Origin: a virus
Taxonomy: Duplodnaviria; Caudoviricetes
Virus record (IMG/VR): IMGVR_UViG_3300030060_001275
Span: 1-52,681 of that record
DNA: 52,681 bases
Strand: one strand, 5' to 3'
The position numbers were made by a program, and so were the translations under genes. The notes below the pieces were generated by a model. That model saw nothing but the letters and a program-made list of their open reading frames with translations. It searched no databases and was not told the origin of the DNA. Positions 6,063-52,096 of the stretch are shown in pieces (position 1 is the first letter of the stretch; each line of letters starts with the position of its first letter).

Positions 6063-7133
6063 TTATGCCGCATTGTACTTAGCAGTCACAATAGCTTCTG
6101 GACGAAGAATCTTGCGACCATATAAGTGCATACCACGGACAATATCAGCAAAGCTGTCAGGATCACGATATGTCTCAGTTTTATTGATCTGTTGAGCAGT
6201 AGCAACCGCTGAATCGTGACCTGCAACAATAACTCCAAAGTTACTGTTCTGATTTGCTGAACCTGAAGTACCAGCACCAGTTCCAACAGAAGGCAAGTTG
6301 TTAGAAACAATTACACGGAATCCGTGTAGGTTGTTTACTACCAAACCATTCTGAAGACCAGCACCACCAAAGTCTGCGTTTAACAGACGAGAATCTTCAT
6401 CTTTTAGCAGTTCCATGAAGACCGGATCAACAACAAGCCAACGTCCCTGCGTATCAACATACTGCTGATCAAGTAGACGACCCATACGAGAAATAACCTG
6501 AAGAGGAGATGCTGACGCTGTAGCAAGCGCAGTAGCACCCGGTAAACGAGGCACTAATGGGATTGAGTGATCTCCAGCAGAGCCTGTGGTGATATTACCA
6601 AAGCTATCTTTACGAAGCTTCATAGTAGTCAAAAGCTCGTCAGATCCTGCTGTGCTTACAGCTTTACTTCCAGATACCACATCGTTTGCGGTACTGGCAA
6701 CTGCGGATAAAGATGCTTGCTTAAAGCCAGATAAATATCCAAGCACTTCAGCGTCATATTGATCACGAAGACGATATGCCGCACGATCAGAAGCCATCTG
6801 TAAAAAGTTTACATGTGAATGTGCTTCTTCAATGTCATCAATCTTGAAAGCAAAGTAATTTGACTTATCAATGACAAGAGTAAAATCTTCATCATCAAGA
6901 TCTTGAGGGACAATTTGAGCACCACGAGCATACTGTTTAACAGTGATTTCTGGCTCTTTAATAATTTTGACAGAGTCACCCATTTGGGCTATCTCTCCAA
7001 AATAATCATTATTTGTTATGCCTTCTATTACAGAGGCTTTACGAAAAGCAAGCTGCACTTGCTTACTGTAAATAATAGGGCTAAAGTTACCATTTGGTAG
7101 GTTACCATAGCCCGATGCAGTTTGAAATGCCAT
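6063..7133 (-). CDS. Major capsid protein
   Basis: 356 aa; FSPIIYSK, NNDYFGEI..GDSVKI, FAFKIDDIE, DIVRGMHLYGRKILRPEA motifs; AGGAG SD. Confidence 0.92.
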   Translation of the reverse strand: MAFQTASGYGNLPNGNFSPIIYSKQVQLAFRKASVIEGITNNDYFGEIAQMGDSVKIIKEPEITVKQYARGAQIVPQDLDDEDFTLVIDKSNYFAFKIDDIEEAHSHVNFLQMASDRAAYRLRDQYDAEVLGYLSGFKQASLSAVASTANDVVSGSKAVSTAGSDELLTTMKLRKDSFGNITTGSAGDHSIPLVPRLPGATALATASASPLQVISRMGRLLDQQYVDTQGRWLVVDPVFMELLKDEDSRLLNADFGGAGLQNGLVVNNLHGFRVIVSNNLPSVGTGAGTSGSANQNSNFGVIVAGHDSAVATAQQINKTETYRDPDSFADIVRGMHLYGRKILRPEAIVTAKYNAA

Positions 7134-10221: not shown

Positions 10222-10471
10222 CCGCTAAAGCCTCATTACGTAGATATTTAAGTGAACGCAAAACTTGTACCGCACCCTGTGCTTGATGTATAGATACAAT
10301 ATTATTTGACTGCTCTAATTTTTTATGCTGATCAGTTATTAAAATATCTATATAGTCATTAAACGCATCCCATTGTTTATTATTATTGCAAAGGGGCTTG
10401 AGCTTGCTCACCACCTTCCGGCGGTAATTGCTGCTGTCTTGCGTTTGACTGTTGTTGCTGGGGTTGTTCAT
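10214..10471 (-). CDS. Small conserved protein downstream of portal
   Basis: 85 aa, helical, ..QAQGAVQVLRSL; overlaps the portal end and the next gene start. Confidence 0.6.
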   Translation of the reverse strand: MNNPSNNSQTQDSSNYRRKVVSKLKPLCNNNKQWDAFNDYIDILITDQHKKLEQSNNIVSIHQAQGAVQVLRSLKYLRNEALADG

Positions 10472-12539
10472 TACCTGTAAATCCTTGTTCTCCCGGCACA
10501 GGAACCTGTCCTATACCAATGTTGCCGTTACCTGCTCCAGTGGGATCTTGTACGCCCGGCGGTCCACCCGCAGGTTGTGGGGAAGCAGGAGGTGCATTCT
10601 GTTGCATAAGTTTTTGTTGTAACGCCGCTTCTTCAAAGCTGTTAGTTACTTTATCTGGATCAAGATCCATAGACTTGGCAATCTCACGTACAATATATGG
10701 GAACTTAGCAAACGGTGCTAGTGTTGGGTTAGATGCTACTTGCATGAACTGCATAAGGCGTTGAGAACGTACTTCGTTTGCCATTAATGATTCAGTGCCA
10801 CGAGCTTTAACTTCTAGATCGCCTTTAATTTCTGGATCAAAGTCAAACTGCATATTAAATGAAAACATTGCTTTGCCCAAAGGAGCTAACAAATAATCAT
10901 CTACGTTTTTAATTACAGTTTTAATACCTCCTGCCGCTGCATTCATCAGCATAGATATTCCAGATGCAGTACGTCCTACACCAGATACGCCAGTTTGTCC
11001 ATGTGCAAAAGAAGGGAAGCCTGTTGACTCATCTGCGAGAACTCTAGCTTTGTCAAACAACTGCATATTCTCTCCAGAAACATTCGGAAACTTTGTACCA
11101 AATATAGCTTGTCCCGGTGCTCCACCTTGACGGCGGAATACTTTACCCGGATACACTGAGAGATCCTGACCGGGCACTAGGTTTGTCTCATCAATTTCAA
11201 TGAGCAAGTTCCCTGACAAGACTGCATTGTCTACCGCCATACGCATAAAGCCGTTCATCAGTGTTTGAGTATCGTCCATGTTTTCTGCGATACCTACACC
11301 AAAGAATGAGTATGGATTTAACTCATACGGCACAGCATAGTATGGTATGTTAGCAGGCTTAAAAGGATTTAGCACTGCACGTAGTATACGTCCGTTACAA
11401 TACCAAATATTAGCTTGCACTTCATCTACTTCACCTAAATTATCAGGTAGTTCAACATCTGCGTTTGCTAGTATTTCTTTATCTATTGTGCCCCAATACT
11501 CAAGCACTTCAAATCTATCTATGTCATAGTCAGTTTGATAATCTTTTAGATCATCTTCCCAATACTTTTTGACATATCCTTCTCCCATTTCAATGACTTC
11601 GTCAATCACTTGTTTACGAAAAAATGGACGTTTTTTAAGACTGCGTAATTGTGTGCGAGACATCTTATGACGCTCTATTATATACTGAGCCTCATCCATA
11701 TTAGATGCATCAGGGTCAGGATAAAAATTCCACACAGAAACATGGGAAGTTGAAGGAACAGTTTTAAATGTTGGACTATAAGTGCCTTCATCATCCCAGC
11801 TTGGGTATTCTTTATCTATCGCAAATGGTCCTTTCATTATTCCTGTGCCAAATAATGCCATTTCAAAAGATGTAGATCTTAGCTGTTTAGAAGCATGTGC
11901 CTCTTCCAACTGATCCATTATCTTTTTTTCCATATTTTTTGCGGCATACATTGCAGGTTCAAAAGTAATCTGCGTAGCTGTTAGACCCGGACCTTCCTGC
12001 AAATTTTCAACATCTTCTAGTTTAGTTTGCAGTGGTCCAAGATTCATTTCCCTTAAAGAGTTAGCTGTAGCTCCAGCAGGAAAATCTCTGCCATCTCCCT
12101 CAAAACCATAAAGTGAACCTTCCTCTACAGAGCTTTGCTCCATTTGTGGAGATTTCATATCAAAGTTAACTTCCTTTGATATACCTTCAGGTAACACAGT
12201 AGGATCTACTGAAATAGGAAATTTTTGATTTGCGAACAATACATCAATAATTTGACCGTATGCCGCTAATGTTTTTGTTTTAGTTACTTTAATAAACACA
12301 CGAGACTTCTCAGCAGATGTAAATTGTACATCAGGACCATATAAGCCTCTGTAGTTACGGTACGCTTGCAACCAACGATCCTCATCAGTACGGCGAGTAT
12401 CTTCAGCTTTGCTGTATTTATCTATTACATAACTAACTAACTTCTGTGTTTCAGGAGTCTCTTTAGAAATTTCTGCAACGTCATCTAGTGAAAGTTGTAC
12501 GTCAGTATCACCTTCAAAGATATTTTCTTCATCTTCCAT
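10383..12539 (-). CDS. Portal protein
   Basis: 718 aa directly after TerL; FYPDP, FFGVGIAENM, RTASGISML motifs; Q/P-rich tail. Confidence 0.9.
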   Translation of the reverse strand: MEDEENIFEGDTDVQLSLDDVAEISKETPETQKLVSYVIDKYSKAEDTRRTDEDRWLQAYRNYRGLYGPDVQFTSAEKSRVFIKVTKTKTLAAYGQIIDVLFANQKFPISVDPTVLPEGISKEVNFDMKSPQMEQSSVEEGSLYGFEGDGRDFPAGATANSLREMNLGPLQTKLEDVENLQEGPGLTATQITFEPAMYAAKNMEKKIMDQLEEAHASKQLRSTSFEMALFGTGIMKGPFAIDKEYPSWDDEGTYSPTFKTVPSTSHVSVWNFYPDPDASNMDEAQYIIERHKMSRTQLRSLKKRPFFRKQVIDEVIEMGEGYVKKYWEDDLKDYQTDYDIDRFEVLEYWGTIDKEILANADVELPDNLGEVDEVQANIWYCNGRILRAVLNPFKPANIPYYAVPYELNPYSFFGVGIAENMDDTQTLMNGFMRMAVDNAVLSGNLLIEIDETNLVPGQDLSVYPGKVFRRQGGAPGQAIFGTKFPNVSGENMQLFDKARVLADESTGFPSFAHGQTGVSGVGRTASGISMLMNAAAGGIKTVIKNVDDYLLAPLGKAMFSFNMQFDFDPEIKGDLEVKARGTESLMANEVRSQRLMQFMQVASNPTLAPFAKFPYIVREIAKSMDLDPDKVTNSFEEAALQQKLMQQNAPPASPQPAGGPPGVQDPTGAGNGNIGIGQVPVPGEQGFTGNEQPQQQQSNARQQQLPPEGGEQAQAPLQ

Positions 12540-12544
12540 ATTCT

Positions 12545-14155
12545 TTAATATCCAAATGTAGAGTCTGAGGGAACATAAGAAGAAGGACTCTGATTAGTAG
12601 GATCAAAGTCCCAGATAGAAAATCTAGGTCTTGACATTATACCATAACGTAATGCATCGTATAAGTGATCTTCTGATTTAGTATCTACATCTTCTGGGTT
12701 TCTTTTATCTAATGGTATAACAGGCAATTGAGAAATAATATTTGTACAAGTATTAAAAAATATTATTCTTGGTTCTTCTGTGTATTCGTCAACTTGCAGC
12801 CTTCTGTGCATTTCATTTTTACCAGATACACGAGAACCCGCAGATCTATCTGATGGCCTCCATCTGCATCCTTTCATATTCATTTGTTCCGCCAAAGACG
12901 GCCCAGTATCACCTCGCTTATGCCAGCACGAACTGTCCAAAATTCCATATTTGATATTGTTATCTCCTGCTTCCATATCAATAACCATGTCTGCAAGATC
13001 AGTTGCCAACACTTTACTAACATACAACTCACGATAAACAATAAGCTGTTCAGAAGGTGATACAGCAATCCAAACAACAGCAGAGTAAGAACCATAACCA
13101 TAATCACAGGCGCGAAACTTAACCCAATTGCGAGGTATATCAAAAGGCTCCACAACATGTATTTCTCTGTTAAACTCAGTGAAAGCCGCGCCTTCTGCAA
13201 CATCCCAATTGCCTTCTAATAATTGTTTTCTTTGATGCTCAGGTAAAGACAAGAGCATTGCTTCATAATCCCCCTGCTCATATAAGTGGGGATTGTCTGT
13301 TAACATAGCAGGAATAAACCTGCGTTTAAATAAAGGTTGAAACTCTTTTGAGTGTCCCTTTGGATACATTAACACTTTACCGCTTGCAATATCAGTTGCA
13401 TTAAACGATTGACCCGGAGGCGCAGGATCTATAAACATCTTTTTAACCCATGCATGACCGGGACCACCGGGGTTAGTAGTAGCTCTCATATACACTGGTA
13501 AATCAGGTGCTGTGCTACGCAAACGTGATCTCATATAGTCCCATGCAAAGTTTGTATTCCATTGTGTTAGTTCATCAAACCCTATCCAACTAAAAGCTTG
13601 TCCTTGATATCTTAATACATCATCTGCTCGATCCAGATAAGAAAACCACAACCTTGCACCGGAAGGAGCAACCCACTGCATTTTTCTCTCTGACCATTTT
13701 ATTCCGGGCCAGATCTTTGGATACATCTCCTGAGACTTCCATACAAGCTCTCTAAGCTCTTCATTGGTATGTCGTAATAGCAACCCACTAAAGGAGGGAT
13801 GACCCATGAACCTGAGAGGATCTGCAAGCATTGCGTAAGATTTACCGCCACCTGCCGCACCTCCATAGAGAACTTCTCTTTCACCTGCTGCCAAGAACTC
13901 AGTTTGAGGACCAGCATTAGGTTTAAATATTACATTATGCTCTTCTTCAGGACGTATTGGCTCAAACTCGTTAGGCTCTTGGGGATCTGCCTTTACCTCA
14001 ATGTTGGGTAATGGCTGACTCTTCTTCCTTGCTGATCCTCGACTTCCTTGCGCCAAGCCTCGACCTTTCGATGGTTTCCGCTTTGGAGATCGCCGCTTCG
14101 TACCTTCTGGCCCATTCGCGGAGAGTTGCACTTCGTCTTTTGTGGGACTGCTCAC
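12545..14155 (-). CDS. terL: Terminase large subunit (start uncertain)
   Basis: Walker A GGAAGGGKS, Walker B IGFDE, ATTNPGG, nuclease DYG...DHLYDALRY. Confidence 0.93.
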   Translation of the reverse strand: MSSPTKDEVQLSANGPEGTKRRSPKRKPSKGRGLAQGSRGSARKKSQPLPNIEVKADPQEPNEFEPIRPEEEHNVIFKPNAGPQTEFLAAGEREVLYGGAAGGGKSYAMLADPLRFMGHPSFSGLLLRHTNEELRELVWKSQEMYPKIWPGIKWSERKMQWVAPSGARLWFSYLDRADDVLRYQGQAFSWIGFDELTQWNTNFAWDYMRSRLRSTAPDLPVYMRATTNPGGPGHAWVKKMFIDPAPPGQSFNATDIASGKVLMYPKGHSKEFQPLFKRRFIPAMLTDNPHLYEQGDYEAMLLSLPEHQRKQLLEGNWDVAEGAAFTEFNREIHVVEPFDIPRNWVKFRACDYGYGSYSAVVWIAVSPSEQLIVYRELYVSKVLATDLADMVIDMEAGDNNIKYGILDSSCWHKRGDTGPSLAEQMNMKGCRWRPSDRSAGSRVSGKNEMHRRLQVDEYTEEPRIIFFNTCTNIISQLPVIPLDKRNPEDVDTKSEDHLYDALRYGIMSRPRFSIWDFDPTNQSPSSYVPSDSTFGY

Positions 14156-40635: not shown

Positions 40636-40655
40636 AAACTATTTAATATAATCTA

Positions 40656-40685
40656 TTGACTTTTATATTATTTAGTGTATAACTA
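40656..40685 (+). promoter_or_regulatory. Promoter TTGACT-N16-TATAACTA
   Basis: TTGACT at 40656-40661, TATAAC at 40678-40683. Confidence 0.7.
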
Positions 40686-40689
40686 TTAG

Positions 40690-40785
40690 TTATATGAGAG
40701 AAACTGCTACGGTAGTTTTCCCTCCGCTGTTTGATCTCACCCTCACAGCAAAGAGTACAAGCCCCTCGCAATGAGGGGTTTTTTT
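40690..40785 (+). ncRNA. Candidate ~95-nt small RNA
   Basis: Own promoter; stem with c(UACG)g tetraloop; GCTGT/ACAGC stem with a CU-rich loop; terminator GCCCCTC-GCAAT-GAGGGG followed by T7. Confidence 0.55.
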
Positions 40786-43700
40786 ATGTGCGTGACATTA
40801 ATCCGCCACGATTCATATCGTTTGATTTAGTCGCAGTAATTAAATCGCCTTTGCTCTGAACATTACCTTCACCAAACACTTCCTCTACACGAGATACATA
40901 GGCACTGGTAGGCTCGTTTCTTTGGTAGCCTTTAGAAGTTGTCTTTCCTTTTCCTGACTTGTCGCCTGCATAAACTGTAAAGTACGCCTTATCACCGGGC
41001 TTGATTGCATTCTCAGCCTGTTGAATAACACGTTTAATGTTTTTGGGTTCTTTAATTACGTTTAATGTATTATTTGATACAGCAACATCAGCACCACCAT
41101 CTGCAACTAATTCTTTAACAACATTGTTGTGATCAGGTGTGCGATTAAATGGATCGTATACTTGTAGCTCAACGTCTTGCTTTGCTAAATCTTCAACTGC
41201 ATTATCAAAACGACCACCACCAATATCTACAACACGTTGACCGGGCTGAAATACTCCCATCTTTTTAAGTTTAGTATACCCAGCAGGTAACTTGCTTTGG
41301 TTAATAGACGTATCAGCAGACGTTACCTTCTGTGTAGGAACGTCCCATAACTCATCTGCATACTTAGATATAGCTTTGACACCTGTCTTTGCGCCTCTAG
41401 CAACCATACCAACACCCGGCACTGCACCTAACGCACCCAATGTCGCCATGCCATAGTCACCTTTTTCAAAGTCTTCTACGGCGGCTTGTGCTGAACGTAT
41501 CTCACCAGTTACAGGTGCGAGGTCAAGACCTAATCCAACCATTTGACGGGTAGTTTCATCTTCTATCTGTTCTTCAGGTTTGATCAGTCCACCTACAAGA
41601 CCACCAGAGTTAAACTGCTTTGTTTTGTATGCTTCTCCTCTCATTAAATACTCAGAGTAATCAGATTTGCTACTAGGAGCACCAAGCTGTTCGTTAATTA
41701 GAGCTCTAACTTCAGAACTAACTTCATTCTCATATTTGAATTTATATATGTCGTTAAGCGTGTAGCCAAACTCTAACTTTATCATTTCTGGAGTAGCACC
41801 GGGATTGCTATCCATAAAATCCTTTACAGGAGGAATTAACAATTCATTTATTACTCTAGAAGATGTTTTACGTACTTCTTCTCTTGCAATAGTTTTAAAT
41901 TCTACAATCTTTTGCTTGTCCGTCATCTTCTGATAGGCATCTCTTTTGATTAGATCATCTAAAACAGGAGTTAATCTTTGAGATACTTCTTGTCTGATTT
42001 TTACATCGGCAGGACCAAATCTAAATCTGCGATATACTTGATATGGTCTAATCTGAAGTCTGTTAGCTTCTTTTTCTACAGCAGTTGCATTCTCAGAAAT
42101 ATTAAGACCAGAAGTCATGGTAGCAATAGGGTTAACTTTTCTTGCTGGTGTTTCCCTCATTATGCTAAATCTAGGCTCTATTTCCTCATAATCAAATCCA
42201 AGACGAGAAAGGCCACTACGGAACGGTCCAAGAGAACGCCCAGCCTTAGCAAACATAATATCCCACGTAGATACTTCTTTGCCTGTTTCTGGTATGAGTC
42301 GCAGTTGCTCATCAGTTAAAGAGTACAAATCTTTAGCTACACTAAGTGGCATCATTAATGTATAAGTATTAAGATAATTTCCTGCTATTTCACCCATAAT
42401 TTGTTTAAACTTTAGTGTGCCTTCCGCCTCTGTGCCTTTAAACGCACCTGCTATCGATGGTAGTGCTTCATTAATAAGTTGAAGTCCACTACCCGCCCTC
42501 ATGGAAGAACCAACTGCTGTCTGTATTAAATCCTGAGAAATACCTACTACATCTGGTTGAGGTTCACCTTTGATCATTTTAAGTGCTGTGTCAGCAAGAT
42601 ATAACTCTAAGTTCATCGGCCCTAAAAAAGGACGCAGATCCTTAGTTCCCTCTTCTCCTATTATCCCTTCCACGTTATACCAAAGTGTTCCGGGATCTTG
42701 TGTATTACGCAGTGCCATAAAAGCACCGACCATACTGAATCCACTAGCCTGCTGTGCAATTCGTTTGGCAACAGAACGCCCAACATAATTTTTACCCGCC
42801 CCAAATCTTTCAAGTGGGATGGCACCAACAATAGGAGCATGTTCATACATAAACTGTATTTGATTGATTACAAAGCGAGGGAAAGGAATAAGCAAACCGG
42901 AAACAAATCCAGCTTCCTTGTCCATTTTTAACCATCCCCTAGCGGCTTGTCCAAATATACCAGTGTCAGCTTTAGGTGTTTTTTGATAGACCATTTCAAA
43001 GGCTTTGTCCATTGCTTGATTAAACAGCTTTGGATTAATCTGATTGAACTTTCCTTCTTTAATAATTTCTATTAGATCTTTGCCTGTGTCTTGTTTTACA
43101 AGTCTACTTAACTCACCTGAAAATGCAGCCTTCTTAAAAAAGTTATCTGACATTTTATTAAAAACATTAAATATATTTCCTATGGACTCAAGTTTTGTTG
43201 GGCTTCCCCCTGCTATTTTTGTAGTCCCGACACCTGCATCAATAAAACTAGAGAAGAATCTTTCATATCCCTCTTTGTCAATGTTCCTATAAAGATCAGC
43301 AATTAGATCTGCCTCTGGCGTGTCTAAAATATATTTAATCATTTCACTAGATTTAAACACAGATCTTTCTTTTATTGGTGTCGCTCCTGCTACACGCGGA
43401 GTAAGTCTATTGTAAAAATATGTAGTGCTTGTCTCAACAGCTTCCTCAAACATATCTAATCCAATACGAGAAGCACCACCAAATACGTTACGCAAAGTAG
43501 TAACAGGCTGAGAAGTCATAATAGAACGGCGAATTCTTTCAAACCCATTTAAATTTTCTTTTAAATTTTGTATGGTTGATTCTTTAATGGCTTCTTTTTG
43601 CAACTTTATGCCGACATCTATGCCCAAGTTCTCCCCAGCCTCAGTAGCAGTTTTAGCTATGCGTTCAATATTAAGAATATTTTTTTCGTTTATAGTTCTC

Positions 43701-44908
43701 TGAGCGCGTAATAATCTAGCGGCATCAGACACAGAAGACAGCATCATATGCTTGACATGCTTTCCATTAAGATTGTACTTGAGCATAATCTCACTATACA
43801 AATCGTCAGCTATGCCATTTTTAGAAAACGCATTGGCAAAATCTTCCGATATTCTTTTTCCGGGTGTTCTAGGTATAACATCGGAAAATTCAAGAAATGC
43901 GGCTTGCATTCTTTTAAACTCTTGGGGAGTAAAAGACAAACGAAACTCAGGATCTATGTTCTCTGCAATATCTGAAAATAATTGATCACCAATTGCTGTG
44001 CTTTCTGGGTCTAGCGGATCAAGCTTTGCATCTTTTTTAGTCGCCTTCTGTGCATCTTTTAGGGCACCCTTCAGAGTCTTACGAACAAGCTTTGTCTCTT
44101 TTTTAGTCGCCTTTTTTGCATCTACTATTTTATCTAATGATCCTAGTGCGTCCTTTACTTCTTTAACTTTTTTAGAATCGGCATTTTTAATTACTTTTTC
44201 TGCTTCAGTAAGAGCTACGCTATCAAGTGCTTCTGCCGCTTCCTCTCCCTGCGCTTTCAGTATGTCAGCCTGCTGTGACTTTTTTCCTAGTCTTAAAGCA
44301 TTAAATCCACCGAAAGTGACACCGGGAATAGCAGATGCAGCAGTGGTTAAGGCAAATTCTTTACCACTAAAGTCTCTCTCTGGGTCTAATTCCATTCGTG
44401 TGCCTTGCTGTGCCACGTTCTGCCCAGCACCAATAACACCCTCCGTTATACCTGCTCTTAGGGCACCCTTCAGAGTCTTACGAACAAGTAATTTAGTAGC
44501 TGATTGCCCTGCTATAGAGGCTACCTTGCCACTTCCCCCTGTAAGTATCCCTAACCAAGTGGATGGTGCAGTGGCAATACCTGTGGTGTAATCTACGGCC
44601 TTATCTACAAAATCTTCTGTGCTCATTTCCGATTTGTCGTAGACATCAAAAAGACGACCCATCTCAGCTTTGCTTTCTTCATCAGCTTCTTGGGCGTACA
44701 AAAGATCACTAATAGTAGAAACTTCGTTCACATCGTGATATCTCATACGCTGTTGAAATTCTTCGTATATCTCATCGGGATCTGTTAGGTCTAGCTCCCC
44801 TTTACTGCTTTTATACAAATAGTTTGCGGCATCGTCTAAAAAATCTTCATTAACAACCAGATTTTCCCTATTGATATCTTTAGAAGCTAGATAATTGTAA
44901 CTTTTCAT
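40784..44908 (-). CDS. Large internal virion (ejection) protein with C-terminal pre-toxin-like segment and SAM-dependent methyltransferase domain
   Basis: 1374 aa, last gene of the virion block; C-terminus contains VVDIGGG, VYDPFN, SNNTLNVI, AYFTVY, GYQRN. Confidence 0.75.
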   Translation of the reverse strand: MKSYNYLASKDINRENLVVNEDFLDDAANYLYKSSKGELDLTDPDEIYEEFQQRMRYHDVNEVSTISDLLYAQEADEESKAEMGRLFDVYDKSEMSTEDFVDKAVDYTTGIATAPSTWLGILTGGSGKVASIAGQSATKLLVRKTLKGALRAGITEGVIGAGQNVAQQGTRMELDPERDFSGKEFALTTAASAIPGVTFGGFNALRLGKKSQQADILKAQGEEAAEALDSVALTEAEKVIKNADSKKVKEVKDALGSLDKIVDAKKATKKETKLVRKTLKGALKDAQKATKKDAKLDPLDPESTAIGDQLFSDIAENIDPEFRLSFTPQEFKRMQAAFLEFSDVIPRTPGKRISEDFANAFSKNGIADDLYSEIMLKYNLNGKHVKHMMLSSVSDAARLLRAQRTINEKNILNIERIAKTATEAGENLGIDVGIKLQKEAIKESTIQNLKENLNGFERIRRSIMTSQPVTTLRNVFGGASRIGLDMFEEAVETSTTYFYNRLTPRVAGATPIKERSVFKSSEMIKYILDTPEADLIADLYRNIDKEGYERFFSSFIDAGVGTTKIAGGSPTKLESIGNIFNVFNKMSDNFFKKAAFSGELSRLVKQDTGKDLIEIIKEGKFNQINPKLFNQAMDKAFEMVYQKTPKADTGIFGQAARGWLKMDKEAGFVSGLLIPFPRFVINQIQFMYEHAPIVGAIPLERFGAGKNYVGRSVAKRIAQQASGFSMVGAFMALRNTQDPGTLWYNVEGIIGEEGTKDLRPFLGPMNLELYLADTALKMIKGEPQPDVVGISQDLIQTAVGSSMRAGSGLQLINEALPSIAGAFKGTEAEGTLKFKQIMGEIAGNYLNTYTLMMPLSVAKDLYSLTDEQLRLIPETGKEVSTWDIMFAKAGRSLGPFRSGLSRLGFDYEEIEPRFSIMRETPARKVNPIATMTSGLNISENATAVEKEANRLQIRPYQVYRRFRFGPADVKIRQEVSQRLTPVLDDLIKRDAYQKMTDKQKIVEFKTIAREEVRKTSSRVINELLIPPVKDFMDSNPGATPEMIKLEFGYTLNDIYKFKYENEVSSEVRALINEQLGAPSSKSDYSEYLMRGEAYKTKQFNSGGLVGGLIKPEEQIEDETTRQMVGLGLDLAPVTGEIRSAQAAVEDFEKGDYGMATLGALGAVPGVGMVARGAKTGVKAISKYADELWDVPTQKVTSADTSINQSKLPAGYTKLKKMGVFQPGQRVVDIGGGRFDNAVEDLAKQDVELQVYDPFNRTPDHNNVVKELVADGGADVAVSNNTLNVIKEPKNIKRVIQQAENAIKPGDKAYFTVYAGDKSGKGKTTSKGYQRNEPTSAYVSRVEEVFGEGNVQSKGDLITATKSNDMNRGGLMSRT

Positions 44909-46074
44909 TATTTAGGTATCAGGGCTAACGCCTCTGCCTCTGCCTTTACTTCACTATAATTGTAAGGGGATGCCATTAGCATACCTACAACAACGCGCCT
45001 ATTTGAATTTTTTTGTCTGGTGCCCATATCCCCTTTTATAAGTTTAGCTATTCTAGGATCCTCTCTTGGTATGAGTGGTCCTTCTGAATCTGGAATATTG
45101 GAGTCACGGCCAGCTAGACCGCTACCGCCTTCTTCAGTAGTAGTAGTAGAATCAATTACAGGAGGTGAAGAGCTTTCTAAACCAGCGGCGGCTTTAGCAC
45201 TGGTGTAAAAATTTATATTGTCAAGAGCAAACGCATTTGCCGCAGAAATGTCAGCAAGCGGATCAATAGCTGTGTCAGCCGTTCGGTTTTCCTCTATTAA
45301 ATCTCTGACAATTTTAAATGCATCGCCTTTAACTTTGGTTTCATCTTCTATTTGTGCAAAATTGTATTTAAGTTCCCCAGTATTTCTATCTACTACAGCA
45401 GATATTCCCATAGCCGCAGACAATTGATCAAATACATTTTTTCTTAGTCGATTGACTTCTGGAGTTGTTGGAGCAACAAACGCACCTTTCCTCTCCTGCA
45501 TACTTAAAGACTCGCCCTGTCCTATAGTAGGCACATCACCTTCAAATTTTCCTCTTTCTGGAATGTATGCAGACCTAATGGACTCTGCTCCTGTTCCTAG
45601 AGAAATATCTCTTCCGAATACTCCAGTTTTTAATAAATCTGTAGGAGCAACATACAAAGGCTCCTTCACAGTAGAGTACCCACCAGAGTTAATATAATCC
45701 TCTATACTGAACCCAGTTATCTCTTTATTTGCCTCCGCTATAGGCATTAAAGATGCTACAGTTACGCCTCGTTTCTTGGCTACGTCTTCTGCTTTCTGTA
45801 TAAATTCTTTGGCATAAATATCCCCGTTATCCATAATCTGTTTAATGATTATGTCTTTATTTGCTACATTTTCTAATTTTGCAGACAGTGCTTTTGCTAT
45901 CTCCTTTTTAACACGTATCTCTTCCTGATACCGTGGCTTGTAGTCTTTAGCTTCCTCACGAAAATCATCCATTGCTTCCTTGAGAAGTTCAATGCCTATT
46001 TTTGCTGATTCTTCTTCAATTTCTTGCGCTTTAGTTGCAAACCCAGCGGCAAATGCTCCTAATTTAAAAGCCAT
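44908..46074 (-). CDS. Internal virion protein (putative)
   Basis: 388 aa; MAFKLGAFAAGFA start followed by a charged helix; synteny. Confidence 0.55.
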   Translation of the reverse strand: MAFKLGAFAAGFATKAQEIEEESAKIGIELLKEAMDDFREEAKDYKPRYQEEIRVKKEIAKALSAKLENVANKDIIIKQIMDNGDIYAKEFIQKAEDVAKKRGVTVASLMPIAEANKEITGFSIEDYINSGGYSTVKEPLYVAPTDLLKTGVFGRDISLGTGAESIRSAYIPERGKFEGDVPTIGQGESLSMQERKGAFVAPTTPEVNRLRKNVFDQLSAAMGISAVVDRNTGELKYNFAQIEDETKVKGDAFKIVRDLIEENRTADTAIDPLADISAANAFALDNINFYTSAKAAAGLESSSPPVIDSTTTTEEGGSGLAGRDSNIPDSEGPLIPREDPRIAKLIKGDMGTRQKNSNRRVVVGMLMASPYNYSEVKAEAEALALIPK

Positions 46075-46586
46075 TATATCTCACTCCTACGAGTCATTAA
46101 TCCTCTTTGTTCAGGTGCTTTTTTAGGTTCAACAGGCATTTCTTCTGTTGTTATAGTCTCTTCTACAGCACCTTCTTCTTCTTGTAGGGTTTTCATTACC
46201 TGATTAATAATGTCTTGCTTAGTGCCCGGTTCATCGTCTGTGCGCTCATTACCTATCACGTAATCAATCTCAGCCATCTCAGCCATTGTAATCATAGTTT
46301 CTACAAGTATAGGAGACACTAATATACCTACATCTAAAGTATGCACTCCCTCCATTGTATTTGCTGTAATTAAAAGATCTGCTATAGATGTTAAAGGCAC
46401 ACCACTTTGAATTTGACCTAGTAACATTTTAGATGTAGTTTTATTTTGAAACATGGGAGCATACACAGCCGCTGCTTCATCTACTGTACTGATGCTAGAA
46501 GGTCTACGCCAAGGGCGAGACTTAGGTTCTGCAACTAAGGACTCTCCGGGTATGGGAGCATCAAGAAAGTTTTCTGGAGTAGACAT
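46074..46586 (-). CDS. Conserved structural-block protein
   Basis: DAPIPGESL...PW.RP, GVHTLDV; ends GLMTRR. Confidence 0.65.
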   Translation of the reverse strand: MSTPENFLDAPIPGESLVAEPKSRPWRRPSSISTVDEAAAVYAPMFQNKTTSKMLLGQIQSGVPLTSIADLLITANTMEGVHTLDVGILVSPILVETMITMAEMAEIDYVIGNERTDDEPGTKQDIINQVMKTLQEEEGAVEETITTEEMPVEPKKAPEQRGLMTRRSEI

Positions 46587-48848: not shown

Positions 48849-49364
48849 TTAAATTAACTCCAGTGCTTTTTGTCGTGTCTCATCTATTCTACGTTCCCAC
48901 CCTTTACCAAATGTTTCGTATATAGATAGACCACGAATAAATTCTTGTCGTTGTTTAGTTACGCCATTAATAAGTTTTTCTATTTGTGTTATAACAATTT
49001 CATTGTGATCATTTTCTATAGTAGACCACACCATGTTGAGAGTGTTTGGACCAATGATGCCATCGGGGTTTGAAATTCCACAGACGGATTGGAGAGCTTT
49101 TGATGCACGGCTGATTCCTGAATTGACAGCATAATCCATAACAACACAAGCAACACTAACAGGTAGATCATCACCTTTGATGCGATCCCAGTAATCACGC
49201 TTGTAAAGTTCAGCCGCCTTTTCCTCCGTGAGATCCATGATGTTGATCTCTGGGTACGCCCTTTTCGATATGCCATACTTAGTTTCTCCACCGGGATCAG
49301 ATGGATGATTAACGTATCCACCTTCATGGTGTAAAACCATTTTAACTATTCTTGCAAAACTCAC
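48849..49364 (-). CDS. Endolysin, glycoside hydrolase family 108 (start revised to GTG 49364)
   Basis: HEGGYVNHPSDPGGETKYGI, DYAVNSG, DGIIGPNT, FGKGWERR; GAGG SD. Confidence 0.9.
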   Translation of the reverse strand: MSFARIVKMVLHHEGGYVNHPSDPGGETKYGISKRAYPEINIMDLTEEKAAELYKRDYWDRIKGDDLPVSVACVVMDYAVNSGISRASKALQSVCGISNPDGIIGPNTLNMVWSTIENDHNEIVITQIEKLINGVTKQRQEFIRGLSIYETFGKGWERRIDETRQKALELI

Positions 49365-49486
49365 TCTTGTTCCTCTGTGTTTTTTTCTTCTGCATGATCG
49401 TGACAACATTTACCATCTTCATGCTCGTGATCTGCTCCATCTGAGTGATCGTGACAACATGCATGTTTCTTTTCTTCTTGCGTCAT
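49361..49486 (-). CDS. 41-aa His/Cys/acidic peptide (not in ORF track)
   Basis: MTQEEKKHACCHDHSDGADHEHEDGKCCHDHAEEKNTEEQE; coupled on both sides (TAATG and GTGA overlaps). Confidence 0.7.
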   Translation of the reverse strand: MTQEEKKHACCHDHSDGADHEHEDGKCCHDHAEEKNTEEQE

Positions 49487-50802: not shown

Positions 50803-51008
50803 TATGATGCCTGTGATATAAGGGCAACTACTGCTCCTAATACTGCAATTACATTAAGCATGACCATTGCTTCAAGTCTCCATAATCTTTTATCTAAACT
50901 ATTTAACTTATCATGCACATAACTATATCTAATAGCACACTCAGCTTCATGTTTTTCTAACTGAAGTTTTGTTTCCATTTCTAAACTAGGCTCTTGCTTT
51001 AATTTCAT
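50802..51008 (-). CDS. Small coiled-coil + TM protein
   Basis: HEAECAIRY...L..LE followed by a hydrophobic tail. Confidence 0.65.
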   Translation of the reverse strand: MKLKQEPSLEMETKLQLEKHEAECAIRYSYVHDKLNSLDKRLWRLEAMVMLNVIAVLGAVVALISQAS

Positions 51009-52096
51009 TATGCCGCTACATCCTCACGCATTTTAATTGGATTGGATGGTGATCTATCCAACCACTTACCCCACTCAGCATAGTAATGACGCATTCCTAC
51101 TTCATCGTGTATAGTTTCATTTTCATGTCTAGCATGAAGAATATTTCTTTTTTCTGTACCTTCACGCATGGTTGTGCCCTGACCAGATACACCAATCAGA
51201 TCCTCGTGCAGATTACGTCCGAATGGACCCCATATTGAATTGTGATGTTTGATACGAGTTTGTCTTTCTTTTTCTGTGTCTTTTTTAAGTCCGTATCCAC
51301 GAAACTCAATTAATACTTTATTTGGTCCAAGAGGTGTTACACTGTCTGAACGGTATGCACTACCACGTAGGTTAAAGTTAAAGCCGGGAAACAGATCTAC
51401 CATGTACCACTGATTAGGTGGCAAGTTAGGGAAGCTAAGTTCCCCTCTATCTTCAAATCCCTCATACTCTTCGTAATTCACAGTGAATGAACTTACGTTA
51501 ACATGCCCGTTATCAAACGGAATATTCTTACGTGCAAAATACTCTTCATTAAATCCACTGACTCTATTAAAGTAGTGCATAAAATCGTGATAAAACTCAC
51601 TGTTGGTATCATGCCAAAGTTTATAGTTAGTATCTATAATAGATTTATGATAATGGAATACTTCCATTTCTTCTGAATCAATTGCATCTGCAATACAGTC
51701 AAATGCACCTGCTGTCCATTCTTCTACACTCATAATAGGATTAGGGTCAAGGGTGACCCAAACCATACCGCCATGCTTAACTTCGCAATAAAGTTCACTT
51801 TTACCTAAAATATTTTTAATAGGCACTTTTCCTGCTGGTCCTGTGTATCGTGAATCGTTGTACACAGCCCTAACATCAGTTCCAGTATTAATAACAGCTA
51901 TATTTTTAAATGCAATTTGCGATGTTCTGTAGCTTCCTATATCTGACATTTCACTTATATGACAAACAGGAACCCATACTTTAGAAAAAATGTTTTCAAT
52001 TTCTTCATCAAATATCTGTTGATTGTTGTAACACTCACTACTGATATGTTCTATCTTTGGTGTCTTATTCCACTGTTTATAATTACGTGCTGGCAT
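51008..52096 (-). CDS. msmA: Methanesulfonate monooxygenase alpha subunit-like ring-hydroxylating oxygenase, lacking Rieske ligands
   Basis: EIENIFSKVWVPVCH.SE, TNYKLWHDTNSEFYHDFMH, LFPG, NLHED, DEVGMRHYY.EW; no CxH...CxxH motif. Confidence 0.75.
   Translation of the reverse strand: MPARNYKQWNKTPKIEHISSECYNNQQIFDEEIENIFSKVWVPVCHISEMSDIGSYRTSQIAFKNIAVINTGTDVRAVYNDSRYTGPAGKVPIKNILGKSELYCEVKHGGMVWVTLDPNPIMSVEEWTAGAFDCIADAIDSEEMEVFHYHKSIIDTNYKLWHDTNSEFYHDFMHYFNRVSGFNEEYFARKNIPFDNGHVNVSSFTVNYEEYEGFEDRGELSFPNLPPNQWYMVDLFPGFNFNLRGSAYRSDSVTPLGPNKVLIEFRGYGLKKDTEKERQTRIKHHNSIWGPFGRNLHEDLIGVSGQGTTMREGTEKRNILHARHENETIHDEVGMRHYYAEWGKWLDRSPSNPIKMREDVAA

What the first reader, a model, noticed from the sequence alone, without database searches (positions are those of the whole stretch)
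40784..41614. GG-bracketed payload on the giant ejection protein: pre-toxin-like hairpin plus methyltransferase
Seen: the last ~275 aa begin at FNSGGLV and end at MNRGGLMSRT. Between them lies GLDLAPVTGEIRSAQAAVEDFEKGDYGMATLGALGAVPGVG, then a class I SAM-MTase (VDIGGG, YDPFN, SNNTLNVI). Established: the first segment resembles PT-TG pre-toxin linkers of polymorphic toxins, and DxGxG plus an N..LNV motif fits nucleic-acid amino-methyltransferases. Inference: an exchangeable, virion-delivered enzyme is released on injection, e.g. to methylate incoming DNA ahead of restriction or to modify a host target.
Basis: partly seen in the sequence, partly recalled or inferred. Interest (0 to 1): 0.8.

Follow-up and report, generated by a model that had tools for sequence, protein, structure and literature searches.

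The report
Swappable methyltransferase cassette on phage protein
The last 250 residues of the largest structural-module protein of this marine HMO-2011-type phage are a swappable cassette (conserved adaptor, methyltransferase, conserved end motif) that related phages exchange for other enzymes or encode as a separate gene.

Summary

**What it is**
- An all-alpha body, residues 1-1121.
- A cassette: a ~60-aa adaptor hairpin (1122-1185), a class I SAM methyltransferase (1186-1361) and a C-terminal motif NRGGLMSRT.

**Comparative evidence**
- In genomes 74-83% identical in the flanking genes, the cargo differs. DNA homology stops at the end of the adaptor and resumes at the tail motif.
- In more distant relatives, adaptor-cargo-tail is a separate gene immediately downstream.
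- The GLM[SA]R[RK] end motif is also carried by the ~170-aa protein two genes upstream (64 of 65 homologues).
- The methyltransferase is under strong purifying selection (dN/dS 0.05-0.09).
- Its family has about 2000 clusters and also sits inside canonical polyvalent proteins.

**What is not supported**
- A DNA amino-methyltransferase: there is no (D/N/S)PP(Y/F) motif, and the nearest folds are small-molecule and tRNA enzymes.
- PT-TG membership by HMM. A language-model search does point to PT-TG, as a lead only.
- A breakpoint at FNSGG. It lies about 23 residues downstream.

Virion delivery is inferred, not shown. This is a new variant of the known theme of effector domains on podovirus internal or polyvalent proteins.

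The parts
41546..44908 (-). Body of the large protein (residues 1-1121): almost entirely alpha-helical, the hypervariable part of the locus. Putative ejection / internal virion protein.
   Evidence: ORF. AF2 model is all-alpha, pLDDT 68. It is the last gene of the structural operon, as are HMO-2011 gp22 and CRP-2 gp44. BFVD fold matches include proteins annotated 'Internal virion protein' and polyvalent proteins. Synonymous sites are saturated against relatives.
41531..41614 (-). Body-end element (residues 1099-1126): FNSGGLV, an acidic linker, then ..RQMVGL. It looks like the body's own former C-terminal tail, interrupted by the fusion.
   Evidence: Cargo-less orthologues P0015 and P0016 end ..GGLV-(acidic linker)-TTRQM.GLMSRK at the same aligned position.
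41354..41545 (-). Adaptor 'hairpin' module (residues 1122-1185): an amphipathic helix plus a Gly/Ala-rich hydrophobic helix (1152-1170). It forms the left homology arm of the cassette.
   Evidence: Nearly invariant across orthologues. Local jackhmmer family. 735 proteins at E<=0.01. Nucleotide homology with L003, L004, L005 and L013 starts at residue ~1122. It holds the most hydrophobic 19-residue window of the protein, KD 1.35.
40826..41353 (-). Cargo: class I SAM-dependent methyltransferase domain (residues 1186-1361), with VDIGGG (motif I), YDPFN and SNNTLNVI.
   Evidence: dN/dS 0.05-0.09 against L008 and L013.
40787..40816 (-). C-terminal tail motif MNRGGLMSRT (residues 1365-1374). It starts the right homology arm of the cassette.
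   Evidence: Conserved whatever the cargo. Restricted to three gene classes of this module. Nucleotide homology resumes at residue ~1367.
40784..40786 (-). Stop codon TAA, abutting the terminator hairpin.
46074..46586 (-). Small 170-aa protein of the same module. It ends in an acidic stretch followed by RGLMTRRSEI, the same end motif.
   Evidence: 64 of 65 homologues carry GLM[ASTG][RP]x within the last 16 residues. G162, L163 and M164 are invariant in alignment A5.
40636..40783 (+). Conserved convergent intergenic region. It forms the rest of the right homology arm and contains a candidate small RNA gene (see Noticed in passing).

Best explanation
The window is a nearly complete genome of an HMO-2011-type marine podophage. 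Its last structural-module gene is a fusion of two units.

Shown:
- Unit 1 (residues 1-1121 plus the former tail 1099-1126) is a large all-alpha protein.
- Unit 2 is an adaptor-cargo-tail cassette: a ~60-aa conserved adaptor hairpin, a variable enzymatic cargo (here a ~180-aa class I SAM-dependent methyltransferase), and a conserved C-terminal motif (N-R-G-G-L-M-S-R-K/T).
- In distant relatives, unit 2 is a separate gene immediately downstream of unit 1.
- In close relatives the cargo differs between otherwise similar genomes. DNA-level homology arms flank it: the adaptor on the left, and the tail codons plus terminator and intergenic region on the right.
- The methyltransferase is under strong purifying selection and keeps the SAM-binding motifs.
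- Its family recurs inside canonical polyvalent proteins of other phages.
- The end motif GLM[SA]R[RK] is shared with the ~170-aa protein two genes upstream.

Inferred:
- Cargo is exchanged by homologous recombination between the arms.
- The big protein is part of the ejection (internal virion) apparatus.
- The constant ends (adaptor and tail motif) serve assembly into, or travel with, that apparatus.
- The methyltransferase is therefore carried in the virion and acts at or just after genome entry, at the cytoplasmic end of the channel.
- Its substrate is more likely a small molecule, RNA or protein than a specific DNA sequence, because it has no target-recognition domain and no amino-methyltransferase motif.
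For: Fusion versus split. The adaptor HMM hits inside the big gene in 11 of 80 IMG/VR loci. In 9 of 80 it hits the N-terminus (residues ~55-130) of the gene abutting the big gene's stop. Those separate proteins end ..NRGGLM[ST]R....KRGGLMSRR or ..FNRGGLASRK.

Cassette borders. In nucleotide BLAST of the window against L003, L004, L005 and L013, flanking genes are 74-83% identical. Homology then starts sharply at q6364 (residue ~1122). It ends at residue ~1159-1179 where the cargo differs, and resumes at residue ~1367 through the intergenic region at 90-93%.

Cargo variety. Orthologues carry ART-PolyVal, LPD23, Phage_L5_gp82, ASCH or unknown domains. Of the 44 orthologues whose body alignment reaches the body end, 19 have the adaptor, 18 the methyltransferase, 10 both, and 31 the tail motif.

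Enzyme. A1 invariant residues include D130/G132-134 (motif I) and D154. pLDDT is >90 over most of the core. Foldseek matches Trm9, RPA2492 and METTL6. VIA Z is 14.1-11. dN/dS is 0.05-0.09 at dS 1.15-1.35.

Polyvalent link. Relatives of the methyltransferase sit in proteins with ddrB-ParB + SLT_3 + LPD23, or LPD22 + ART-PolyVal.

Tail motif. Under a strict pattern, 28 of 5982 ORFs carry it, and all are in three gene classes. 73 of 74 ORFs with the motif have it in the last 16 residues. Codons vary synonymously (Ser TCA/TCC/AGC/AGT, Leu TTA/CTA, Arg CGC/CGT/AGA).

Ejection-protein reading. The gene sits last in the structural operon. The fold is all-alpha. BFVD matches include 'Internal virion protein' of Synechococcus phages S-CBP2, S-CBP3 and S-RIP1 and of a pelagiphage, at E 1e-7 to 8.5e-6.

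Precedent. Hardies et al. [quoted passage not shown]
Against: - There is no direct evidence that the protein is in the virion. No proteome was found for this phage group.
- Sequence tests for the T7 internal virion family failed: hhalign against T7 gp16 and gp15 gave probability 0.14%; 0 of 22 orthologues hit an internal-virion PHROG; Foldseek against the PDB gave nothing at E<=1e-3; a profile search of PDB sequences gave nothing significant.
- BFVD matches have modest TM-scores (0.2-0.5), and long helical proteins match easily.
- Hardies et al. list no IVP-D for HMO-2011 in their Table 2.
- The hydrophobic helix of the adaptor (KD 1.35) is below the usual transmembrane threshold, so membrane insertion is uncertain.
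- The methyltransferase is marginally below Pfam's cut-off, and its substrate is unknown.
- 60 of 80 related loci show no adaptor at E<=1e-3. HMO-2011 and CRP-2 have neither cargo nor a downstream gene. The cassette is therefore dispensable for infection.
Confidence: 0.6

Rival explanations
1. One reading: the payload is a nucleic-acid amino-methyltransferase that methylates the incoming phage DNA ahead of host restriction, as P1 DarB does.
For: It has a class I methyltransferase fold with SAM motifs. Virion-borne anti-restriction methylases exist: DarB, described in Iyer et al. 2017 (PMC5512222, passages read), and H66 gp60. The conserved polar residues N157, R158, H162, N163, N182, N185, Q231 and N233 could suit a phosphate-bearing substrate; that is inference.
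Against: No (D/N/S)PP(Y/F/W) motif follows strand 4. The sequence there is SNNTLNVI, family consensus NVLNVI. The domain is only ~180 aa, with no target-recognition domain. The best fold matches are small-molecule and tRNA methyltransferases (Htm, RPA2492, Trm9, NovO, UbiG, METTL6), and no entry annotated as a DNA methyltransferase is in either top-50 list. The polyvalent-protein methylase described by Iyer et al. is an EcoKI/TaqI-like NPP(Y/F) enzyme fused to a helicase, which this is not.
Confidence: 0.12
2. The big protein and its cargo are late non-virion proteins, or the cargo acts during assembly (for example by methylating a phage structural protein, the packaged DNA or a metabolite in the producing cell). 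Nothing is delivered to the next host.
For: No virion evidence exists. Homology to known ejection proteins is not detectable by sequence. The cassette is dispensable in many relatives.
Against: The gene's position at the end of the structural operon is conserved across the group. The fold resembles annotated internal virion proteins and polyvalent proteins. The alternative cargos ART-PolyVal and LPD23 belong to families that Iyer et al. 2017 interpret as injected effectors. Fusing variable enzymes to a structural-module protein is hard to explain if they need not travel with it.
Confidence: 0.15
3. The adaptor hairpin is a true, divergent member of the PT-TG pre-toxin family of bacterial polymorphic toxins, and the cassette system descends from polymorphic toxin loci.
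For: In the ESM Atlas feature search of residues 1120-1185, the three best named clusters are all PT-TG (0.89, 0.88, 0.86). All ten best named hits share that family or clan, and MafB, Ntox50 and Tle1-like clusters follow. The module has a P-x-x-G-[DE] core, sits N-terminal to variable effector domains, and also occurs twice in one cargo protein.
Against: The PF14449 HMM gives no hit in six frames of the window even at E<=10, although the control genome rings. hmmscan at E<=1 gives no hit. 0 of 120 listed homologues carry PF14449. The Atlas score is under 0.9 with 128 shared features, which that tool rates as a lead. A third of shuffled proteins also get ten concordant hits.
Confidence: 0.25

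Closest known systems
Polyvalent proteins of phages and conjugative elements (Iyer, Burroughs, Anand, de Souza, Aravind 2017, PMC5512222)
   Same: Large phage proteins encoded among virion genes that combine unrelated enzymatic domains and are predicted to be injected with the DNA. Orthologues here carry ART-PolyVal and LPD23. Relatives of the methyltransferase sit in proteins with ddrB-ParB, SLT_3, LPD22, LPD23, LPD38 and ART-PolyVal. The body's fold matches BFVD proteins named 'Large polyvalent protein associated domain-containing'.
   Different: The methylase that paper describes in the passages I read is a DarB-like NPP(Y/F) adenine methylase with LPD36 and an SF2 helicase. This one is a small generic class I enzyme. 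The conserved adaptor plus C-terminal motif that frame the cargo, and the split/fused alternation with the upstream gene, do not appear in those passages. The paper's supplementary domain lists could not be seen.
Podovirus internal virion proteins that carry extra domains: T7 gp16 (lytic transglycosylase), N4 gp50 (virion RNA polymerase), Pseudomonas phage H66 gp60 (SAM/methylase site) (Hardies et al. 2016, PMC4819975)
   Same: A very large alpha-helical protein encoded at the end of the tail / internal-protein genes, fused to a domain that should act in the cytoplasm. A methylase-type domain on such a protein has a precedent.
   Different: No sequence homology to T7 gp16 or gp15 is detectable. 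That paper found no IVP-D in HMO-2011. Here the enzyme is a C-terminal cassette that is exchanged between close relatives and is a separate gene in others.
Polymorphic toxins with pre-toxin domains (PT-TG), and MuF-toxin fusions of temperate phages (recalled, not read here)
   Same: A constant delivery part, a short conserved pre-effector module, and a variable C-terminal effector swapped by recombination.
   Different: The PT-TG HMM does not match. Here a conserved motif also closes the C-terminus, so both ends are constant and the middle varies. The cargos seen are a methyltransferase, an ADP-ribosyltransferase, ASCH and unknowns, not classic nucleases or deaminases.
Encapsulin cargo-loading peptides, for example the Myxococcus xanthus signal LTVGSLRR (seen in a methods passage of PMC5959871)
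   Same: A short C-terminal Gly / hydrophobic / small / Arg-Arg motif after a flexible linker, shared by several otherwise unrelated proteins that must end up inside an HK97-fold shell.
   Different: This is an analogy of form only. Binding to the capsid protein was not shown here, and the receptor of the phage motif is unknown.

Membership tests
Class I (Rossmann-like) SAM-dependent methyltransferases | Seven-stranded alpha/beta fold | tested here: met
   AF2 model with pLDDT >90 over most of the core and alternating strand/helix order. VIA-align Z 14.1 (7bgg_A, rmsd 3.0, 154 aligned), 13.6 (3e23_A) and 13.2 (Trm9 5cm2_Z). Foldseek E down to 4.3e-8.
Class I (Rossmann-like) SAM-dependent methyltransferases | Motif I (D/E)xGxGxG, and an acidic residue at the end of strand 2 for the SAM ribose | tested here: met
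   VDIGGG at 1227-1232. D130, G132, G133, G134 and D154 (YDPFN) are invariant in 28 sequences. The roles of these residues are inferred from the superfamily.
Class I (Rossmann-like) SAM-dependent methyltransferases | Score above the curated Pfam cut-off (Methyltransf_23) | tested here: not met
   26.7 bits against a cut-off of 27 for the 276-aa piece, and 23.4 bits for the whole protein. This is a marginal miss. Homologue P0086 passes at 32.8 bits.
Class I (Rossmann-like) SAM-dependent methyltransferases | SAM binding and methyl transfer | not testable with these tools
   Needs biochemistry. Purifying selection (dN/dS 0.05-0.09) argues for a functional domain.
DNA/RNA amino-methyltransferases (N6-adenine / N4-cytosine; Dam, TaqI/EcoKI-like, DarB-like) | Catalytic (D/N/S)PP(Y/F/W) motif IV after strand 4 | tested here: not met
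   The sequence after strand 4 is SNNTLNVI, and the family consensus is NVLNVI. The only D-P-F lies at the end of strand 2.
DNA/RNA amino-methyltransferases (N6-adenine / N4-cytosine; Dam, TaqI/EcoKI-like, DarB-like) | Target-recognition domain, and closest structural neighbours among DNA methyltransferases | tested here: inconclusive
   The domain is ~180 aa with no extra lobe. No entry annotated as a DNA methyltransferase appears among the rows listed, but absence from a list excludes nothing.
PT-TG pre-toxin domain (PF14449) | Match to the family HMM | tested here: not met
   No match in six frames of the window at E<=0.01 or at E<=10, with the control ringing in B. subtilis. No match by hmmscan of residues 1099-1190 at E<=1. 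0 of 120 listed adaptor homologues carry PF14449.
PT-TG pre-toxin domain (PF14449) | Short conserved module placed N-terminal to variable effector domains | tested here: met
   The adaptor precedes methyltransferase, ASCH + L5_gp82 and unknown cargos. The language-model search ranks PT-TG clusters first, as a lead only.
Polyvalent proteins (Iyer et al. 2017) | Two or more domains of disparate activity in one phage protein encoded among virion genes, sharing domains with larger polyvalent proteins | tested here: met
   Body plus methyltransferase in the structural operon. Orthologues carry ART-PolyVal and LPD23. The methyltransferase family occurs in ddrB-ParB/LPD23 and LPD22/ART-PolyVal proteins.
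Polyvalent proteins (Iyer et al. 2017) | Delivery into the host with the DNA | not testable with these tools
   This is a prediction for the family as well.
T7-type internal virion protein D (gp16 / IVP-D) | Detectable sequence homology to the IVP-D family | tested here: not met
   hhalign of A7 against T7 gp16 gives probability 0.14%. 0 of 22 orthologues hit an internal-virion PHROG. Only a single-sequence template was used, so a remote relationship is not excluded.
T7-type internal virion protein D (gp16 / IVP-D) | Size above 1000 aa, alpha-helical, encoded with one small and one or two large proteins downstream of the tail genes | tested here: met
   Gene order is 683, 170, 388 then 1374 aa after the tail and lysozyme genes. 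The model is all-alpha. BFVD hits include annotated 'Internal virion protein' of marine T7-like phages at E 1e-7 to 8.5e-6, TM 0.24-0.33.
T7-type internal virion protein D (gp16 / IVP-D) | Presence in the virion at low copy number | not testable with these tools
   No proteome was found.

The most novel reading that the evidence does not exclude
The C-terminal GLM[SA]R[RK] motif is a phage 'cargo-loading peptide'. It is a short docking signal shared by the small internal protein, by the big protein in some clades, and by every adaptor-led cargo protein. It recruits them into the capsid core of an HK97-fold virus, much as encapsulin targeting peptides load enzymes into HK97-fold shells. Together with the adaptor hairpin it would form a natural plug-and-play system. 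Any enzyme placed between adaptor and tail would be packaged and injected by one of the ocean's most abundant phage groups. It would also hint at a common origin of encapsulin cargo loading and phage internal-protein packaging.
Probability: 0.25. Interest if true: 0.75.

Novelty: new variant of a known kind. Interest (0 to 1): 0.55.

Why it matters
HMO-2011-type phages are described as a dominant and broadly distributed marine viral group (abstract of PMC9038755). A term search of that group's main comparative paper found no mention of a methyltransferase, internal virion proteins or ejection.

The locus gives a clearly delimited natural cassette system: adaptor, cargo and end motif, with DNA homology arms. 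Through it these phages appear to trade early-acting enzymes such as a methyltransferase, an ADP-ribosyltransferase, ASCH and many unknown domains.

That makes three things directly testable:
- which enzymes a phage carries into the cell;
- what a large, uncharacterised methyltransferase family (about 2000 clusters) of polyvalent proteins does;
- whether a seven-residue C-terminal motif is enough to load a foreign protein into a virion, which would be a useful engineering handle.

Tried and rejected
- **Capsid docking of the tail motif.** Complex prediction of the major capsid protein (A4) with the C-terminal 46 residues of the 170-aa protein (A5) returned 'no answer' (score 0.00, controls not run). 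This is neither for nor against binding. Portal, the 388-aa and the 683-aa proteins were not tried because the cap is one job.
- **Body against solved structures.** Foldseek PDB gave no match at E<=1e-3. The profile against PDB sequences gave only E 0.06-0.07 chance-level rows, including a Tse5 fragment.
- **Body against T7 gp16 and gp15** by hhalign: nothing.
- **PHROGs on 22 orthologues:** only phrog_14016 and phrog_2774, both of unknown function.
- **Methyltransferase profile against PDB sequences:** best was arsenite methyltransferase at E 0.017, motif IV region only.
- **Megablast of the locus against GenBank phages:** no match.
- **'Methyltransferase 82-85% identical while bodies are 39-40% identical'** as proof of recent methyltransferase transfer: rejected. 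Flanking genes are just as similar as the cargo. It is the body whose synonymous sites are saturated, so the body is the outlier.
- **Adaptor as a transmembrane hairpin:** hydropathy peaks at only 1.35 and the flanking charge bias is weak. Kept as a possibility, not a claim.
- **Pfam on seven separate downstream cargo proteins and the L003 cargo:** no families.
- **Supplementary files** of PMC5512222 and PMC9038755 were not seen. They may list this methyltransferase family or this gene.
Full report
**1. Observation**

The - strand ORF 40784..44908 is open for 1374 residues. The finding's coordinates cover its last 276 codons plus the stop. All quoted motifs are present:
- FNSGGLV starts at residue 1099.
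- GLDLAPVTGE starts at 1127.
- VDIGGG starts at 1227.
- YDPFN starts at 1251.
- SNNTLNVI starts at 1278.
- MNRGGLMSRT spans 1365-1374.

**2. Context**

The window is a virus record of 52,681 bases, estimated 96% complete. tblastn against GenBank phages finds only HMO-2011-type phages: Roseobacter phages CRP-1, -2, -13, -345 and -603, and Puniceispirillum phage HMO-2011. Identity is 22-31% and the matches cover the first ~1000 residues only. One further hit, from a 485-kb uncultured phage, matches residues 1191-1345 at 41%.

In HMO-2011 (gp22, 3387-nt gene) and CRP-2 (gp44, 3366-nt gene) the homologue is the last gene of the structural operon and converges on the replication and metabolism genes. 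The window has the same layout. On the - strand it encodes the portal (10383..12539), major capsid protein (6063..7133), tail-like proteins, a GH108 lysozyme (48849..49409), and then proteins of 683, 170, 388 and 1374 aa.

**3. The cargo is a class I SAM methyltransferase, not a recognisable DNA amino-methyltransferase**

- Pfam Methyltransf_23 scores 26.7 bits (cut-off 27), E 5.4e-6. PHROGs gives only phrog_14016, of unknown function.
- phmmer over 1.84 billion cluster representatives gives 1992 hits at E<=1e-3, 1407 at E<=1e-10 and 266 at E<=1e-30. Most of the 150 listed hits are embedded in large proteins of up to 5097 aa.
- Alignment A1 (28 sequences) has invariant D130, G132, G133, G134 (motif I), D154, P155, N157, N163, N182, L184, N185, G217, G221, Q231 and Y239, plus an N-terminal T102-S103.
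- The AlphaFold2 model (mean pLDDT 77, >90 over most of the core) has the alternating strand/helix order of the fold. Residues 1-71 of the piece are below 50.
- Foldseek against the PDB ranks Trm9, RPA2492, phosphoethanolamine N-methyltransferase, METTL6 and UbiG first.
- VIA-align over 48,161 chains gives Z 14.1 (heterocyclic toxin methyltransferase 7bgg), 13.6 (3e23) and 13.2 (Trm9).
- No entry annotated as a DNA methyltransferase is among the listed rows of either search. This is an absence, not an exclusion.
- The sequence after strand 4 is SNNTLNVI, with no (D/N/S)PP(Y/F/W). HMMER aligns this stretch to the equivalent stretch of arsenite methyltransferase. It is the generic pattern of Methyltransf_11/23-type enzymes.
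- The domain has no extra lobe that could read DNA sequence.
- Against L008 and L013 the domain shows dN/dS 0.09 and 0.05, at dS 1.35 and 1.15. It is therefore maintained as a working protein.

**4. The C-terminus is a cassette**

Of 91 homologues, 66 align to at least 400 residues of the body and 44 reach the body end. Of those 44:
- 19 have the adaptor and 18 have the methyltransferase.
- 10 have both, 8 have the methyltransferase without a detectable adaptor, 9 have the adaptor without the methyltransferase, and 17 have neither.
- 31 end in the tail motif.
- The 13 without it include probable truncations.

A further 25 proteins have the methyltransferase but no body. A BLAST map shows body homology ending at query residues ~1105-1136. 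The methyltransferase reappears at different positions in proteins of 926-2202 aa.

Other cargos seen in orthologues are ART-PolyVal (P0018), LPD23 (P0017, P0053), Phage_L5_gp82 (P0007, P0011, L004), ASCH (P0011) and several with no family.

The adaptor sequence (GLDLAPVTGEIRS...GALGAVPGVG) is almost invariant among orthologues whose bodies are 33-57% identical.

**5. Borders at the DNA level**

Against L003, L004, L005, L008 and L013, the flanking genes on both sides are 74-83% identical in nucleotides. The body is either not alignable (L008, L013) or 65-72% identical (L003-L005).
- Homology resumes sharply at query nt 6364 (residue ~1122) in L003, L004, L005 and L013.
- It ends at residue ~1159-1179 where the cargo differs.
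- It resumes at residue ~1367 and continues through the stop codon, terminator and intergenic region at 90-93%.

The cargo therefore lies between two homology arms, which is the layout expected for exchange by homologous recombination. That mechanism is inferred.

The body's synonymous sites are saturated (pS 0.71-0.77), while the adaptor and cargo are not. The gene is thus a mosaic of segments with different histories, and the outlier is the body, not the cargo.

FNSGGLV belongs to a body-end element ([AS]GGLV) that cargo-less orthologues also have. P0015 and P0016 end ..GGLV-(acidic linker)-TTRQM.GLMSRK, which aligns with the window's ..GGLVGGLIKPEEQIEDETTRQMVGL followed directly by the adaptor. 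The 'GG bracket' is therefore real. It consists of the body's own former tail and the cassette's tail.

**6. Split and fused forms**

367 relatives were found in IMG/VR, and the best 80 loci were examined.
- The adaptor HMM (from A3) hits inside the big gene in 11 loci: L003-L008, L012-L014, L017 and L026.
- In 9 loci it hits residues ~55-130 of the protein encoded by the gene that abuts or overlaps the big gene's stop: L020, L021, L024, L025, L028, L029, L035, L045 and L069. L025 has two adaptor copies.
- The other 60 loci have no hit at E<=1e-3. Some of them are cut short downstream.
- The separate proteins (636-1206 aa where complete) end ..NRGGLMTR, ..NRGGLMARN, ..KRGGLMSRR, ..FNRGGLASRK or ..FNRGGLV.QKGLM[AT]RN.

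Adaptor-cargo-tail is therefore a gene unit of its own, fused to the big gene in the window's clade.

A profile search with A3 finds 735 proteins at E<=0.01 among the 8000 candidates scored. Many are 800-1100 aa, and several lie on 40-57-kb contigs. None of the 120 listed carries PF14449, and many carry PF25735.

**7. The end motif**

- Under a strict pattern (G[LIVM][MAGVL][STG]P?R[KRTN]{0,2} at the end), 28 of 5982 stop-to-stop ORFs of at least 50 aa in the 80 loci plus the window match. These are 15 big genes (the window's included), 7 next-downstream genes and 6 homologues of the 170-aa protein. There are no matches elsewhere.
- The 170-aa protein (46074..46586) ends ..APEQRGLMTRRSEI.
- Of 65 homologues, 64 carry GLM[ASTG][RP]x within the last 16 residues, and the 65th has it 17 residues from the end.
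- G162, L163 and M164 are invariant in 25 sequences that are 30-76% identical, and follow a variable acidic linker.
- Of 74 ORFs with the motif anywhere, 73 have it at the C-terminus.
- Codons vary synonymously: Ser TCA/TCC/AGC/AGT, Leu TTA/CTA, Arg CGC/CGT/AGA. Together with the motif's presence in three different DNA contexts, this shows that selection acts on the peptide.
- That a short C-terminal motif is shared by proteins of one module points to a common docking partner. That is inference. Its form recalls encapsulin targeting peptides such as LTVGSLRR.

**8. Is the big protein an ejection protein?**

For:
- Its position, size and all-alpha fold.
- 55 BFVD matches at E<=1e-3. They include proteins named 'Large polyvalent protein associated domain-containing', 'ART-PolyVal-like' and 'Phage MuF C-terminal domain-containing'. 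They also include 'Internal virion protein' of Synechococcus phages S-CBP2 (1.1e-7), S-CBP3 (1.8e-7) and S-RIP1 (8.5e-6), and of Pelagibacter phage EXVC018P (3.0e-7).

Against:
- TM-scores are modest.
- There is no PDB match and no PHROG match in 22 orthologues.
- hhalign against T7 gp16 and gp15 gives probability 0.14%.

Hardies et al. 2016 identified no IVP-D for HMO-2011. They do state that internal virion proteins host domains destined for the cytoplasm, among them a SAM/methylase site on phage H66 gp60 (passages read).

I rate virion carriage at roughly 0.6.

**9. PT-TG**

- The HMM does not match.
- The Atlas feature search ranks PT-TG clusters first at 0.86-0.89, a lead only.
- The adaptor works like a pre-toxin module, but membership is unproven.
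- A weak adaptor-like element also opens the alternative ~500-aa first module of other orthologues (iE 0.006-1.9).

**10. Comparison and novelty**

The kind is known: polyvalent proteins (Iyer et al. 2017, passages read) and internal virion proteins with cytoplasmic domains (Hardies et al. 2016). What is new here:
- the framed cassette (adaptor, cargo, end motif) with its homology arms;
- its alternation between a separate gene and a fusion;
- the end motif shared with the small protein of the module;
- the placement of a large uncharacterised methyltransferase family in this setting.

A term search of the main HMO-2011-type comparative paper found none of 'methyltransferase', 'internal virion' or 'ejection' (main text only). 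Searches listed no paper whose title or abstract start describes this. Supplements were closed.

**11. Verdict**

It is not supported for DNA amino-methylation, PT-TG membership or the exact breakpoint. Delivery and substrate remain to be tested.

Noticed in passing
window 40656-40790, + strand: Candidate small RNA gene in the convergent intergenic region. A TTGACT (40656) - 16 nt - TATAAC (40678) promoter-like pair is conserved in 8 of 8 aligned relatives. About 100 nt follow, with two hairpins and an intrinsic terminator (40759-40781 plus a T-run) that abuts the big gene's stop codon on the other strand. Two pairs show compensatory changes. There is a weak Rfam hit to the alphaproteobacterial sRNA BjrC1505 (22.6 bits, gathering 50, E 0.051)..
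   Followed up: partly
window 46074-46586 (-), and homologues in 65 loci: The small ~170-aa protein of the module has an invariant C-terminal G-L-M after a variable acidic linker, across the whole phage group. It has no Pfam or PHROG family.
   Followed up: yes
window 41546-44908 (-) against L003-L008 and L013: The body of the big gene is the most diverged stretch of the compared region. Its synonymous sites are saturated and it is not alignable in nucleotides, while the flanking genes on both sides are 74-83% identical and the capsid protein is 71-88% identical in amino acids. This suggests allelic replacement or diversifying pressure on this protein.
   Followed up: partly
L025:4737-8354 (+): A separate downstream cargo protein of 1206 aa carries two adaptor modules (residues 69-140 and 844-914). 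Adaptor-cargo units can therefore be strung in tandem.
   Followed up: no
window 51008-52096 (-): A 362-aa ORF inside the structural operon has a weak Pfam match to the catalytic domain of ring-hydroxylating dioxygenase alpha subunits (PF00848, 26.4 bits, cut-off 24.9). That is an odd function at this position.
   Followed up: no
window 12545-14155 (-), residue ~506 of 536: This ORF lies next to the portal gene and is probably the large terminase by position, though it was not searched. It contains YGIMSRPRF about 30 residues from its end, a loose match to the tail motif. This may be chance; conservation was not checked.
   Followed up: no
window 48849-49409 (-): A GH108 lysozyme (PF05838, 95.8 bits; phrog_315 endolysin) is encoded inside the structural operon, directly upstream of the 683-aa protein. 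It could be virion-associated.
   Followed up: no
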